Below are positions 1 to 64,000 of a stretch of DNA of 64,000 nt, piece after piece (the first letter of the stretch is position 1; each line of letters begins with the position of its first letter). The stretch covers positions 38,936,001-39,000,000 of the forward strand of contig OZ336886.1 of the NCBI GenBank assembly GCA_965287045.1, in the 5' to 3' direction. Made by a program: the position numbers. This stretch comes from Carcharhinus amblyrhynchos (Eukaryota).

Positions 1-3000
1 AGTAACACGGAATGAGGATGGAGATCCGAATGAGGAGCAGCAGCTGAGGAGAGTGTTTAACTAAGTATTGAGTGGAGTGGGGCATTTATTGGTGAACTTG
101 TATAATGCAACACAGGACCTCAGAACTGATCCTAGAGTACAACATTGTTTTAGTAAGGACATGAATAGTGATCCCAGGGTAGAACAGCATGAGAGGATGG
201 GCAGCAAATGCAGTGTGGAGGAGTTTGAGAGGGGAGTGCTGAACCCAGTCTGGAGCAGCATGAGAGGAGTGAGTTGAATCCAGCGTTGAGCAGCGAGGTT
301 GGCGAACCAAGTGTAGAAAAATGTGTTATCAGGAAAGTGAAAGAAGTAAGGGGCAAGGCATCAGCAATCCGGTATGAAGCGTCGCAGGAGCAGAGCGGTG
401 GAGCTAGTATGGAGTGACAGGGGAGAAGATCTGCAAACTCTTTATAATGTGATGTAGGATAAATGACCAGCCTATTTTCGAGTGGTGAAACAGGACGGCA
501 GTAAACCGAGTGCGAGCAGATAGGAGAAGAGCAATGAAACCAGTGCAGAGCAATGTGAGAAGAGTACTGTGAGTTGAATATGGTGCAGCACAGGAGAAGA
601 GGAATAGTCTGGAGTAATGGAAGAAGACAGAAGCGAACACAGTGATCGTAGAAGAGCGAAGAAACCAGTGTGGCCCAGTGCAGGCAGAGTGCAGTAAACC
701 TAGTCGAGCAGTGTGCAGGGATATCAAACCCAGTGTGGAGCACCACAGGAGGAGAGTGAAGATCTCAGTTTACAAGAATGTGGGAGGAGGTGGTGGGGCA
801 ATCCCAGTGTGGAGCAGCGTGTGAGGAGAGCGGTGGAACCCATTGAGTAGCACAGGAGCAGAGGGCTTATCCCAGTGTGGAGCCATTTGGATGCATGACG
901 ATGAACCCAGTGTTGTGCAGTTCAGCAGGAAACCTGAGGTGGAGGTGCATGGGACGAGCAACTACAAGAGAAATGCAGAGAAAGCAGCAGCAATTTTACA
1001 TGATCTTCTTTGATCTCGGAAGAGTCTTCAACGTTGTCTATGCTGAGAGGTTATGGGGAACTATCCTCTGTGTTGGCTGCCCCAGTGGTCACCATTCTCT
1101 ACCTGCTTCACAATGACACGTAGGCCATGAACCTGACCAACGGATCCACCATAAACCCAACTTATACCAATACTGTTCTCAATCTTGGTTCCGACATTGC
1201 ACCATCGCACCCCCTGAAAGCTGCAAGTGAAATAGAGCTAAATGACAGAACAAACAAGAATCTGTTCAGCATCAAAAAGGTGCAGGCCTGATCCAGGGTC
1301 GTTCCATGTTGTTATGGAACTGTATTTGGAAACGGTGATTGTGCTTGTGCACAATTGGAGGCCAAGCTCCGAACCATGGTCAACACTTTCACCAAGATGT
1401 ATGAGAGCGTGGGCCTTTCACTAAATATCCAGAAGACAATGGTCCTCTTTCAACCTCCCTCATCATACAGAACTGATGCCACCAAAACCGGTCATCAAAA
1501 TCAACAACAAGTTCTTGGAAAATGTGGACTACGTTCCATAACGTGACAAGTCACAATGGCAGACAACAACAACAAGCTTCAACACTGTCTTCAGTGTGCC
1601 AACGCAGCCTTCTTTCACCTGAGGATGTGTTTGAAGATCAGGAACTCAGACAAGCACGAAGCTCATGGTCTACAGGGTCCTAGTGCTACAACCCTCTATG
1701 TGGCTCAGAGACGTGGACTCTGTACAGCAGGCACCTCAAACCCTGGAGAAATCCCTCCAGTGCTGCCACTGCAAGATCCTGCAAATCCATTGGCAGCAAA
1801 GGCACACAACGTCAGTGGTATCGCTCAGATCAATCTCCTGAGCATCGAAGCACTGACCAGGCTGAGTGATCTCTGCTGGGCTGGCCACTTCACCACATCA
1901 GACAGGAGTCTCCCAAAGCAATTTCTGTACTCACAGCTTTGATACAGCAAGCCCCAGGAGGGTAGAGAAAATGCATCAAGTACATCCCGAAAACTTCTTC
2001 ACAATTTACAACACCGCCACTGACCCCAAGGAATCCCATGCCCAAGACTGGTTGAAGTGGATGAAAAGCATCTGAGAAGGAGCTGAACACCTTGATCTTC
2101 ATCACTGAGAGCAAGCAGAAGCCAAACTTCATCAGGCGAAGGAGCATGGAGCAACCCACGCACTCACCCACTATCCCCTGTAATAGAGATTGTACGTTGT
2201 CATTAGACTGCTCCATCAGCTGTGAATTTATTTTAAGTGTTGTTGCAAGTGTGGAGAAGCGCAGGTGGAGTGTGGCATTGCCCAGTGTAGAGCAGTGTGG
2301 AAGGGTGGCAAACCTTGTATGTCTTAGTGTGGGATGAGGACGGTGATCCTAATGAAGAGCAGTGAGCTCAACTGAGTGTTGATCAGAGTTGTGGGGGGCT
2401 GGTTAGTGGCAAACTTGCATCACGCAACGTGTGTCCAGACAGCCGATCTCAGTGTACAATGGTGATTTTGTAAGGAGGTGAGTGATGAACCCAGGGTAGA
2501 ATACCATAAGAGGATAGCGACACAAGAGAAGAAGGAGGAAAACAGTATGCAGCAGAGCACGAGGACAGCAGTCAACCTCTTGTGGAGCAGCAGAAGAGGA
2601 GAGAGATGAATCCAGTGTGAAGCAGCAAAATTGGCAAACCAAGTGGAGAACAACGTGCTATCAGGAAGGCAAAAGCAGTCTGGAGCAGGTTGGGTGGAAT
2701 CAGCAGTCCAATATGAAACATTGCAGGAGCGGTGAACCTAGGATGCCAATGTGGAACATAAATGATGAGCCCAGTTTTGAGTGGTGCCCGAGAAGAGCAA
2801 TGGATCCAGTATGAGCAGCGTGGGAGAAGAACATGAAACCAGTGTACAGCAATGTGAGAAGAGTACAGCAGATTGAATATTGTGCTGCGCAGCTAGCGCG
2901 TGATAAATCCAGTCTGGGGCAGCGAAGAAGGAGAGAGATGAACACAGTGTGGATCATTGTGGGAGAAGAGTGAAGACTCCAGTGTGAACCAGTCCAGGCA

Positions 3001-63000: not shown

Positions 63001-64000
63001 GGCTCATGGTCCACAGTGCAGTAGTGTTACTGCCCATCTGTATGGCTCAGAAATGTTGATTTTGTACAGCAGGCACCTCAAAACCCTGGAGAAGCCGCAC
63101 CAGTGCTGCCTCTGGATGATCCTGAAAATCCATTGATAGCATAAACACACATCAACGCTCTTCTCAATATTGCCACTGGACAATGGTCTCACTCAGGCCA
63201 ATATCCCAGCACTGAAACATTGACCATGCTGAGTCAACTCTGCTGGGCACGCCATATCGCCAAATGTCTGACACGAGATACCCAAAGCATATGCTGTGCT
63301 TGGAGCGTCGATATTGCGAGCAAGTCCCATAGGAGCAGGAAGAATGCATCAATAACACCCTGAAAACGTCCTCAAAAGTTCGAACAACCCCACTGATAAC
63401 AGGGAATCCCTTGCACAAGACCATTTAAAATGGATGAAAAGCATTGAAAAGGAGTTGAACACCTTGATCTTCATTGCCAAGAGCAAGCGGAAGTCGAGCG
63501 GTGTCAGGAAAGGAGTGCATTGTGATCCACTCACTCACCCAATCCTCTATTCCATATCTGCCCCCTGTGATAGAAATTGTAGGCTATCGTTCGACTGTTC
63601 CGCCATCTGTGAAATTATTTTGAGTGTTGTAGTAAGTGTGGAGAAGCACGGGGAGTGTTGCATACCCAGTGTGAAGAGGGCAGGAGACAGGTGGCAAACC
63701 CAGTATGAAGTAACACGGAATGAGGACGGAGATCCTAATGAGGAGCAGCAGCTGAGGAGAGTGTTTAACTAAGTATTGAGTGGATGGGGCTTTTATTGGT
63801 GAACTTGTATAATGCAACAGAGGACCCCAGAACTGATCCTAGAGTAGAAGAGTGTTTTAGTAAGGAGATGAATAGTGATCCCAGGGTAGAACAGCATGAG
63901 AGGATGGCAGCAAATGCAGTGTGGACAGTTTGAGAGGGGAGTGCTGAACCCAGTCTGGAGCAGTATGAGAGGAGAGAGTTGAATCCAGCGTTGAGCAGCA

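What the first reader, a model, noticed from the sequence alone, without database searches (positions are those of the whole stretch)
1..64000. Composite macrosatellite built from one dead RTE-LINE insertion plus its minisatellite host
Seen: all 29 LINE pieces face the same way, start at the same truncation point (the QLQEK codons) and, except the deleted copy 17, end at the same point, each separated by a homologous ~1-kb spacer. Independent retrotransposition would give variable 5' truncations and different flanks. Inference: a single insertion into a minisatellite was amplified in tandem by recombination. TE-derived satellites are known in general, but I do not recognise this family. It may be an undescribed satellite marking a centromeric, subtelomeric or heterochromatic domain.
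Basis: partly seen in the sequence, partly recalled or inferred. Interest (0 to 1): 0.7.

Follow-up and report, generated by a model that had tools for sequence, protein, structure and literature searches.

The report
LINE-plus-minisatellite composite macrosatellite array
The whole window is one long tandem array whose 2.2-kb repeat unit is a dead, front-truncated LINE retrotransposon fragment plus about 1 kb of decayed 35-bp minisatellite, an ordinary kind of transposon-derived satellite DNA with a clear higher-order structure.

Summary
The 64-kb window is a single head-to-tail array with no N and nothing else in it. It contains 29 LINE pieces, all on the + strand. All start at the same base (the QLQEK codons). 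All but the piece in unit 17 end at the same base. Spacers of about 1.0 kb separate them, made of a degenerate 35-bp minisatellite.

The LINE piece is the 3' part of an endonuclease-type non-LTR retrotransposon. It runs from about 50 residues inside the RT domain to the end of the ORF, followed by a very short 3' UTR. The RTE label is plausible but unproven.

All copies share the same junctions, and all 11 A copies share the same stop codon. The unit was therefore multiplied as DNA after a single insertion, not by repeated retrotransposition.

- The array is a higher-order repeat with three subunit types. A and B are about 73% alike, and C is a single-origin A/B crossover hybrid.
- The subunits are arranged as AB dimers and ABC trimers.
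- There are later large duplications (16.4 kb at 97%) and a 5.5-kb tract at 99.8% identity.

CpG depletion points to a methylated vertebrate genome, and the closest LINE relatives suggest a cartilaginous fish. Chromosomal location, genome-wide distribution and prior description could not be checked. It is a new member of a known kind, of modest interest.

The parts
1..64000 (+). One uninterrupted head-to-tail array of 28 subunits plus a 292-bp start of a 29th. Order: A B A B A B A B C A B C A B A B [A/B deletion unit 17] C A B C A B C A B A B A(partial). Neither array edge is in the window.
1..2330 (+). Example A subunit (11 full copies, 2324-2332 bp). The other copies start at 4512, 9024, 13530, 20219, 26887, 31400, 41367, 48035, 54729 and 59201.
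   Evidence: within-type identity 92-100%
1..956 (+). Minisatellite spacer of unit A01, continuing from the previous unit. It holds about 25-28 degenerate copies of a 35-nt unit whose profile consensus begins AACCCAGTGTGGAGCAG.
957..2246 (+). LINE piece of A01 (1290 bp). It starts at the (E)QLQEKC codons inside the RT domain and runs to the C-terminal Cys/His motif and a very short 3' tail. The frame is broken by stops and frameshifts.
2331..4511 (+). Example B subunit (11 full copies, 2140-2188 bp). The other copies start at 6839, 11349, 15857, 22548, 29217, 33725, 43696, 50364, 57061 and 61525.
   Evidence: 72-74% identical to A
3253..4436 (+). LINE piece of B02 (1184 bp). It has the same start and end as in A but lacks about 150 bp that A keeps (A01 1392-1592). 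It has a 16-nt direct duplication of the first LINE bases just upstream. It keeps an in-frame TGA straight after the C-terminal motif, about 22 nt before the minisatellite resumes.
18042..20218 (+). Example C subunit (5 copies; others at 24736, 39189, 45884, 52549). It is an A/B hybrid: A-like up to about offset 1150-1250, inside the LINE piece, and B-like after that. It always lies between a B and an A.
35901..39188 (+). Unit 17. An A subunit is cut about 265 bp into its LINE piece (36847 to about 37112) and joined to a B subunit at about B offset 103. This is a deletion of about 1.2 kb with 2-3 nt of microhomology. The B LINE piece 37925 to about 39113 is whole.
5454..5470 (+). 17 nt directly upstream of the LINE piece of A03. 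It begins with a 9-mer that recurs 5 nt downstream of the LINE 3' end (6760 onward). This is the candidate target-site duplication.
1500..7000 (+). A tract nearly identical (about 12 differences in 5.5 kb) to about 10520-16020, while the flanks differ by 7-9%. It reflects a recent conversion or duplication whose edges are not at unit boundaries.
16174..32557 (+). A 16.4-kb block repeated at 37326-53709 (97.1% identity, offset 21152). This is a large secondary duplication inside the array.

Best explanation
This is non-coding satellite DNA of the composite, transposon-derived kind, organised as a higher-order repeat. The proposed history has six steps.
1. An endonuclease-type (RTE-like) LINE was reverse-transcribed from its 3' end into a pre-existing 35-bp minisatellite. 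Copying stopped inside the RT domain, leaving a dead 1.3-kb 3' fragment.
2. A segment of about 2.3 kb, holding that fragment plus about 1 kb of minisatellite, was duplicated in tandem. It then multiplied by unequal exchange between misaligned repeats.
3. Two neighbouring copies diverged to about 73% identity (types A and B). B lost about 150 bp of the LINE.
4. The AB dimer (4.5 kb) became the unit of amplification. Dimers are now 92-97% alike.
5. One unequal crossover between an A and a B within the LINE part made the hybrid C. This gave ABC trimers (6.7 kb) that spread further.
6. Recent events duplicated blocks of 16 kb or more and homogenised a 5.5-kb tract.

**Shown:** the anatomy, the shared junctions and shared disabling mutations, the subunit types, the hybrid and the duplications.

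**Inferred:** the order of events, unequal crossing-over as the engine, and the absence of any function beyond being repetitive, probably methylated DNA. The source organism is also inferred: a vertebrate, probably a cartilaginous fish.
For: **The LINE piece is a LINE.**
- phmmer with one read-through copy (window 49327-49971, TGA as X) found 34 proteins at E<=1e-3, the best at 2e-14.
- 10 of the 14 hits scanned carry RVT_1. The three full-length ones (1049-1232 aa) carry Exo_endo_phos plus RVT_1.
- tblastn places the A piece on residues 638-994 of the 1096-aa relative P0033, whose RVT_1 spans 585-822.
- The relatives read PE[ST]QCGFRP..GT.DMIF..RQLQEKC.EQ.QPLY..F.DL.KAFD. The window pieces begin at the QLQEKC part of that motif.
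- The piece runs to the C-terminal C..C.R.C.SRIGL.SH.R.H-type motif that ends three of the relatives.

**One insertion, amplified as DNA.**
- All copies share identical 5' and 3' junctions.
- The A-B alignment passes through both junctions.
- The same TGA stop is present in 11 of 11 A copies.
- No + strand frame is open for more than 191 codons anywhere in the window.

**The host was a minisatellite.**
- All 203 of 203 profile hits lie in spacers.
- The 8-mer GGAGAAGC occurs 37 times. Of these, 36 sit at just two unit positions, immediately flanking the LINE piece.
- The 17 nt upstream of the piece match best, among all non-self positions of the A+B consensus dimer, the B-type 3' flank (14 of 17).

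**Recombination.**
- Identities are 92-100% within types, 72-74% A-B, 83-85% A-C and 78-80% B-C.
- All 5 of 5 C units switch from A to B states at the same place, judged on 396 diagnostic columns.
- C groups with A in the 5' half and with B in the 3' half, each with 100/100 support.
- The C context (B-C-A) is what an A x B unequal crossover predicts.
- There are large internal duplications and a near-identical tract.

**Not coding, no RNA gene.**
- Pfam found no family at E<=0.01 in the three long minus-strand spacer ORFs and two long + strand ORFs scanned.
- Rfam and tRNA scans found nothing.

**Methylated vertebrate-like DNA.**
- CpG o/e is 0.36 and TpG o/e is 1.55.
- CpG sites make up 4.2% of the consensus but account for 104 of 995 variant events.

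**Taxon.** 9 of the 17 hits that carry an organism name are sharks: Rhincodon 5, Pristiophorus 3, Heptranchias 1.
Against: - **Weak direct domain evidence.** Pfam found no RVT_1 in any of the 11 window fragments scanned, even at E<=1 to 10. The two word-indexed protein searches found nothing. The LINE identity rests on the one exhaustive phmmer run and on tblastn at 25-48% identity.
- **Weak top hit.** The best phmmer hit, P0001, is a repetitive hypothetical protein matched six times at 33% identity over a part of the query that is partly out of frame. It is not good evidence by itself.
- **Weak target-site duplication.** The A-type 3' flank matches only 12 of 17, no better than several ordinary minisatellite units. 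The B-type 5' flank has lost the motif. The minisatellite phase across the insertion could not be fixed, because the units vary in length.
- **Limits of the window.** Neither array edge nor any copy elsewhere in the genome could be examined, so a dispersed, mobile form is not excluded.
- **Possible assembly error.** The 99.8% tract could be a mis-assembly rather than biology.
- **Mechanism not shown.** Unequal crossing-over is inferred from footprints. Rolling-circle or replication-based amplification of the early array would leave similar products.
Confidence: 0.85

Rival explanations
1. The unit is a mobile, non-autonomous composite retrotransposon of the SVA/LAVA type: a VNTR block plus the 3' end of a LINE, which the parent LINE's enzymes recognise. 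The window would then be a place where such elements piled up head to tail.
For: - **Matching anatomy.** The unit has a 35-nt VNTR-like block followed by a 3'-complete LINE end with a very short tail. That is the anatomy such an element would have.
- **RTE precedent.** RTE-type elements are reported to mobilise 3' partial copies (PMC2887409, passages read).
Against: - **No insert boundaries.** Inside the window, all 27 aligned units abut with the same junctions. No flanking unique sequence, no tails and no unit-specific duplications lie between them.
- **Constant minisatellite block.** It is about 1.0 kb long in every unit (from the coordinates).
- **Recombination footprints.** The A/B/C higher-order pattern and the crossover hybrid point to recombination, not to independent insertions.
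- **Dead reading frame.** The frame was already dead when the copies multiplied.
Confidence: 0.04
2. The LINE did not land in a minisatellite. The 35-bp repeat arose afterwards, by local tandem duplication of sequence next to or at the edge of the LINE fragment, and the whole was then amplified.
For: - **Possible LINE-derived core.** The minisatellite core CAGTGTGGA would encode Q-C-G. The relatives have QCGFR 16 residues upstream of QLQEKC, and the last unit before the LINE has TQC 15 codons upstream.
- **Precedent.** Tandem repeats are known to grow out of transposon parts (review PMC12628747, passages read).
Against: - **No further match.** Apart from TQC, my own codon-by-codon comparison of the translation with the relatives' motif finds only 1 of the 15 intervening codons matching. 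The region just downstream is 30-48% identical. No relative aligns upstream of about offset 940.
- **Flanking variant.** A private variant of the minisatellite unit sits on both sides of the LINE piece, like a target-site duplication. That needs the repeat to have been there first.
Confidence: 0.08
3. The regular array is wholly or partly an assembly artefact, with copies collapsed or spuriously duplicated.
For: A 5.5-kb tract is 99.8% identical to another tract 9 kb away, with sharp edges. A 16.4-kb block recurs at 97% identity. Assemblers do err in such places.
Against: - **Structured divergence.** Most copies differ by 3-8% in a tree-like way, with well-supported subclades.
- **Real-looking variants.** There are private indels, a unique deletion unit and CpG-biased substitutions. 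These are properties of real, diverged copies. At most the copy number or the 5.5-kb tract would be affected.
Confidence: 0.03

Closest known systems
Composite repeats arranged as macrosatellites in the complete human genome (Hoyt et al., bioRxiv 10.1101/2021.07.12.451456; passages read)
   Same: - The repeating units are built from a transposon fragment plus other repeats.
- They are arranged in tandem arrays.
- The authors distinguish them from retrotransposing composites such as SVA and LAVA, and attribute them to unequal crossing-over.
   Different: - Those are human families, and this window shows no sign of being human.
- Their definition asks for three or more repeated sequences per unit. 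The basic unit here has two: one LINE fragment and one minisatellite block.
- Sequence relatedness was not tested and is not expected.
Transposon-derived satellite DNAs in general (review PMC12628747; abstract and passages read)
   Same: [quoted passage not shown]
   Different: For LINEs, the passage I read names untranslated regions as the source. Here the monomer holds 1.3 kb of RT-coding sequence plus a host minisatellite, and the unit is kilobases long rather than nucleosome-sized.
Higher-order repeats of primate alpha satellite (recalled; no call here)
   Same: Diverged subunits (here about 73% alike) sit in a fixed order, with much higher identity between whole higher-order units (92-97%). 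There are hybrid subunits from unequal crossover.
   Different: - The subunits are 2.2 kb, not 171 bp.
- They derive from a LINE and a minisatellite.
- No evidence of centromere function.
Bovine 1.711-type satellites (older satellite plus an inserted element amplified together) and cetacean L1-based heterochromatin satellites (both recalled from memory, not checked in any call)
   Same: An inserted mobile element and its satellite host, or a LINE segment, became the repeat unit.
   Different: Different element families and hosts.
Coding macrosatellites such as D4Z4 (DUX4) (listing and abstracts seen)
   Same: Kilobase-scale units in long tandem arrays.
   Different: Those units carry an intact gene. 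Here no frame is conserved: the longest + strand frame is 191 codons and out of frame with the RT, and no Pfam family was found.

Membership tests
Macrosatellite / satellite DNA | Head-to-tail copies with no unrelated sequence between them | tested here: met
   28 subunits abut without gaps across 64 kb, all on one strand
Macrosatellite / satellite DNA | Unit of kilobase size and an array of tens of kilobases or more | tested here: met
   Units are 2.14-2.33 kb, and the higher-order units are 4.5 and 6.7 kb. The array is at least 64 kb, and its edges are not in the window
Macrosatellite / satellite DNA | Defined chromosomal domain (centromeric, subtelomeric, heterochromatic) and copy-number polymorphism | not testable with these tools
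   No flanks and no source assembly. There are no TTAGGG runs in the window
Higher-order repeat organisation | Diverged subunits in a fixed order, with whole multi-subunit blocks much more alike than neighbouring subunits | tested here: met
   A-B identity is 72-74%, against 92-100% within types. The order is AB / ABC
Composite repeat sensu Hoyt et al. | [quoted passage not shown] | tested here: inconclusive
   The tandem arrangement is met. The basic unit has two components (a minisatellite block and a LINE fragment), and only the AB or ABC higher-order unit has four to six. Mobility is not testable here
APE-type non-LTR retrotransposon (LINE), for the inserted piece | Homology to the reverse transcriptase and C-terminal region of elements that carry an AP-endonuclease plus RT | tested here: met
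   There are 34 phmmer hits. 10 of 14 scanned have RVT_1, and 3 full-length ones have Exo_endo_phos + RVT_1. tblastn is colinear from residue 638 to 994 of 1096. The window fragments themselves do not reach Pfam's RVT_1
RTE clade of LINEs | Single ORF of about 1000 aa with the AP endonuclease at the N-terminus and RT, with no separate ORF1 (features as stated in PMC2887409) | tested here: inconclusive
   This is not visible in a 5'-truncated piece. The nearest full-length relatives are 1049-1096 aa, with the endonuclease starting at residues 11-34, on contigs of only 3.5-3.8 kb. That fits RTE, but those contigs may be incomplete
RTE clade of LINEs | Extremely short 3' UTR, often of simple repeats | tested here: met
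   In B02 an in-frame TGA follows the C-terminal motif, and the minisatellite resumes about 22 nt later. The exact LINE end is inferred
RTE clade of LINEs | Short target-site duplications flanking insertions (6-12 bp in PMC2887409) | tested here: inconclusive
   A 9-nt exact repeat, up to 14 of 17, flanks the piece. The host is itself repetitive, so chance similarity is not excluded
RTE clade of LINEs | RT groups with named RTE elements in a phylogeny | not tested
   No named RTE, L2, CR1 or Rex reference sequence was available from any tool. The reference alignments of PMC2887409 are in supplements, which were closed
VNTR-composite retrotransposon (SVA/LAVA-like) | Separate insertions, each with its own flanks, tail and target-site duplication, and with variable VNTR length | tested here: not met
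   Inside the window, all junctions are the same and the minisatellite block is constant at about 1.0 kb. Dispersed copies elsewhere could not be searched for

The most novel reading that the evidence does not exclude
The array is the functional centromeric satellite of a cartilaginous fish, or a sex-chromosome or germline-restricted heterochromatin block. It would be a kilobase-unit higher-order repeat built from a LINE fragment and a minisatellite. That would show alpha-satellite-like higher-order organisation arising from a transposon-plus-minisatellite composite, in a lineage whose centromeres are essentially undescribed.
Probability: 0.08. Interest if true: 0.55.

Novelty: new member of a known kind. 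Interest (0 to 1): 0.27.

Why it matters
Satellites born from transposon fragments, and composite units amplified by unequal exchange, are well documented, so the principle is not new. The value here is as a clean worked example:
- The founding insertion can still be read: its truncation point, its complete 3' end and a candidate target-site duplication.
- The host minisatellite is still recognisable.
- The later history is legible in one window: the monomer split into A and B, dimer amplification, a single-origin crossover hybrid giving trimers, then block duplications and conversion.

If the source is indeed a cartilaginous fish, it would add a described macrosatellite to a group with very little satellite literature. 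My two literature searches aimed at sharks and elasmobranchs listed no such family. It would also give a ready FISH and long-read marker for whatever domain it occupies.

Tried and rejected
- **Pfam on the window's own LINE frames.** Scans of 8 single frames and 3 read-through frames found no RVT_1, only noise hits below cut-off.
- **Word-indexed protein searches.** One search used a 153-aa frame against longer proteins. Another used the 191-aa frame against proteins of similar length. Neither returned a hit. No predicted protein from the source genome could therefore be found to name the species.
- **TRF.** No rows at score >=200 with periods up to 500. At score >=30 it reported only short scraps of the minisatellite.
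- **Rfam and tRNA scans.** Rfam (gathering thresholds) and ARAGORN found nothing.
- **Coding spacer.** I considered and rejected a coding role. Minus-strand frames reach 204 aa, but they break at different places in neighbouring copies and match no Pfam family. They fit a pyrimidine-rich strand that is poor in stop codons.
- **LINE extending further upstream.** I considered whether it reaches the QCGFR motif, and rejected this for lack of matches beyond TQC.
- **Minisatellite phase across the insertion.** This was not resolvable, because unit lengths vary.
- **Literature.**
  - Searches for RTE or LINE-derived satellites and for shark or elasmobranch satellites listed nothing that describes this unit.
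  - A frog tandem-repeat paper from the first list proved irrelevant when I read its passages.
  - A search for the peptide QLQEKC found 0 papers.
  - Two searches failed on term format. One was re-sent in corrected form.
- **Not used.**
  - The bacterial and archaeal genome collection and the phage, plasmid and E. coli collections were left out because they cannot hold this sequence.
  - Paper supplements were closed.
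Full report
**What is there.** The window has no N and an even composition: 47-50% G+C and a purine-rich + strand throughout. Its first 3 kb recur about every 4.5 kb at 92-95% identity, always in the same orientation. At lower stringency each 4.5 kb resolves into two subunits of about 2.33 and 2.18 kb that are 65-70% alike. Mapping both subunits over the window gives 28 abutting subunits plus the first 292 bp of another.

**Three subunit types.** There are 11 A units, 11 B units and 5 C units, plus one deletion unit. 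Identities are 92-100% within types, 72-74% between A and B, 83-85% between A and C, and 78-80% between B and C. The order is A B A B A B A B C A B C A B A B [unit 17] C A B C A B C A B A B A.

**The LINE pieces.**
- The reading frames are badly broken. Pfam found no reverse transcriptase in 11 window fragments, and two word-indexed protein searches found nothing.
- An exhaustive phmmer search used one copy read through its single in-frame stop with X (window 49327-49971). It found 34 proteins at E<=1e-3.
- Of the 14 hits scanned, 10 carry RVT_1. The three full-length ones (1049, 1096 and 1232 aa) carry an AP-type endonuclease domain followed by RVT_1.
- tblastn with four of these relatives gave 213 HSPs, all on the + strand, in every subunit that contains a LINE piece.
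- The A piece is colinear with residues 638-994 of the 1096-aa relative, whose RVT_1 spans 585-822. It therefore starts about 50 residues inside the RT domain.
- The relatives read ...QCGFRP..GT.DMIF..RQLQEKC.EQ.QPLY..F.DL.KAFD.
- At the other end, the piece reaches the Cys/His motif that closes the ORF of three relatives.
- In B02 an in-frame TGA still follows that motif, and the minisatellite resumes about 22 nt later.
- The piece is thus 3'-complete and 5'-truncated, the usual product of aborted target-primed reverse transcription. That mechanism is stated for RTE elements in PMC2887409 (passages read).
- Counting the two pieces in unit 17, there are 29 pieces.

**The spacer.**
- The roughly 1.0 kb between pieces shows a sharp self-similarity peak at lag 35: 0.41 in A and 0.39 in B, against a mean of 0.27 with s.d. 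0.025. The LINE parts lack this peak.
- A 35-nt profile built from the window's own spacers hits 203 times at E<=0.01. All hits are on the + strand and none is in the LINE intervals, which make up about 53% of the window.
- The profile comes from these same spacers, so the hits are partly by construction. Their total absence from the LINE half is not.
- TRF sees only scraps, so the minisatellite is old and decayed.

**One insertion, amplified as DNA.**
- All 27 aligned units share the same 5' and 3' junction columns. The first 12 LINE bases are identical in 23 of 27 units and differ by 1-2 bases in the other 4.
- The alignment between the two old types A and B runs through both junctions.
- The same TGA interrupts the RT frame in 11 of 11 A copies.
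- Independent retrotranspositions would not give this pattern.
- A possible target-site duplication survives. The 8-mer GGAGAAGC occurs 37 times, and 36 of these sit at two unit positions, just upstream and just downstream of the LINE piece.
- The 17 nt upstream of the A-type piece find their best non-self match (14 of 17) at the B-type 3' flank.
- I treat this duplication as suggestive only. The A-type 3' flank scores 12 of 17, like several ordinary units, and the host is itself a repeat.

**Later history.**
- A keeps about 150 bp of the LINE that B and C lack.
- C is A-like up to about offset 1150-1250, inside the LINE piece, and B-like after that. All 5 of 5 C copies show the same switch, on 396 diagnostic columns.
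- In maximum-likelihood trees C groups with A for the 5' half and with B for the 3' half, each at 100/100 support.
- C always sits between a B and an A, which is what a single unequal crossover between a misaligned A and B would make.
- Unit 17 is a deletion of about 1.2 kb with 2-3 nt of microhomology.
- A 16.4-kb block recurs 21,152 bp away at 97.1% identity.
- A 5.5-kb tract is 99.8% identical to its partner 9 kb away, while its flanks differ by 7-9%.

**Function and setting.**
- No + strand frame is open beyond 191 codons, and the longest ones are out of frame with the RT.
- The long minus-strand frames in the spacer break differently between copies and match no Pfam family.
- No Rfam family or tRNA was found.
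- CpG is depleted (o/e 0.36) with TpG and CpA in excess. CpG sites are over-represented among variants, 104 of 995 events from 4.2% of sites. This is as expected for germline-methylated vertebrate DNA.
- There are no telomere-type runs.
- Of the 17 phmmer hits that carry an organism name, 9 are from sharks. The rest are a gar, a halosaur, a wrasse, a mantis shrimp, a tapeworm (2) and one bacterial MAG protein. I infer a cartilaginous-fish source with moderate confidence.
- Nothing suggests human sequence.

**Comparison with what is known.**
- Composite units containing transposon fragments, arranged as macrosatellites and ascribed to unequal crossing-over, are described for the human genome (10.1101/2021.07.12.451456, passages read).
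- A recent review states that almost any transposon part can be tandemised (PMC12628747, abstract and passages read).
- The organisation into diverged subunits within much more similar multi-subunit blocks is that of a higher-order repeat.
- The RTE label fits three things: the very short 3' tail, the 3'-partial form, and the compact single-ORF relatives (for the defining features; for the data).
- No RT phylogeny with named references could be made, so I leave clade membership open.

**What stayed unchecked.**
- Whether the family is already in Dfam or Repbase or in print. My searches listed nothing that describes it, but they cover open-access text only, and supplements were closed.
- The full array length and its chromosomal position.
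- Whether single units occur elsewhere in the genome.
- The chromatin state.

**Verdict.** It is a new member of a known kind, with modest interest.

Noticed in passing
window 1500-7000 versus 10520-16020: This 5.5-kb tract has about 12 differences (99.8%), while the sequence on either side differs by 7-9%. Its edges do not coincide with unit boundaries. It is either recent gene conversion or duplication, or an assembly error.
   Followed up: partly
window 16174-32557 versus 37326-53709: A 16.4-kb block of the array is repeated at an offset of 21,152 bp with 97.1% identity. This is a level of duplication above the AB/ABC units.
   Followed up: partly
just upstream of each B-type LINE piece, e.g. 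window 3236-3252: B units carry a 16-nt direct duplication of the first LINE bases at the 5' junction. A and C units do not.
   Followed up: no
window-wide, + strand: There is a constant strand asymmetry: A 30.5%, G 26.6%, C 21.5%, T 21.4%, with positive GC and AT skew in every 2-kb bin. It covers both the LINE parts and the minisatellite. It explains the long but unconserved minus-strand ORFs.
   Followed up: partly
protein P0001 (hypothetical protein of the razorfish Xyrichtys novacula, 1044 aa): The best phmmer hit is matched six times with a 131-residue period by one short part of the LINE query. It may come from another tandem repeat holding a LINE-derived segment, in a teleost.
   Followed up: no
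last minisatellite unit before each A-type LINE piece, e.g. window 907-956: In the LINE's frame this unit reads TQC 15 codons before QLQEKC, close to where the relatives have QCGFR (16 residues before). I take this as coincidence arising from the minisatellite core, but a LINE-derived origin of the minisatellite is not fully excluded.
   Followed up: partly
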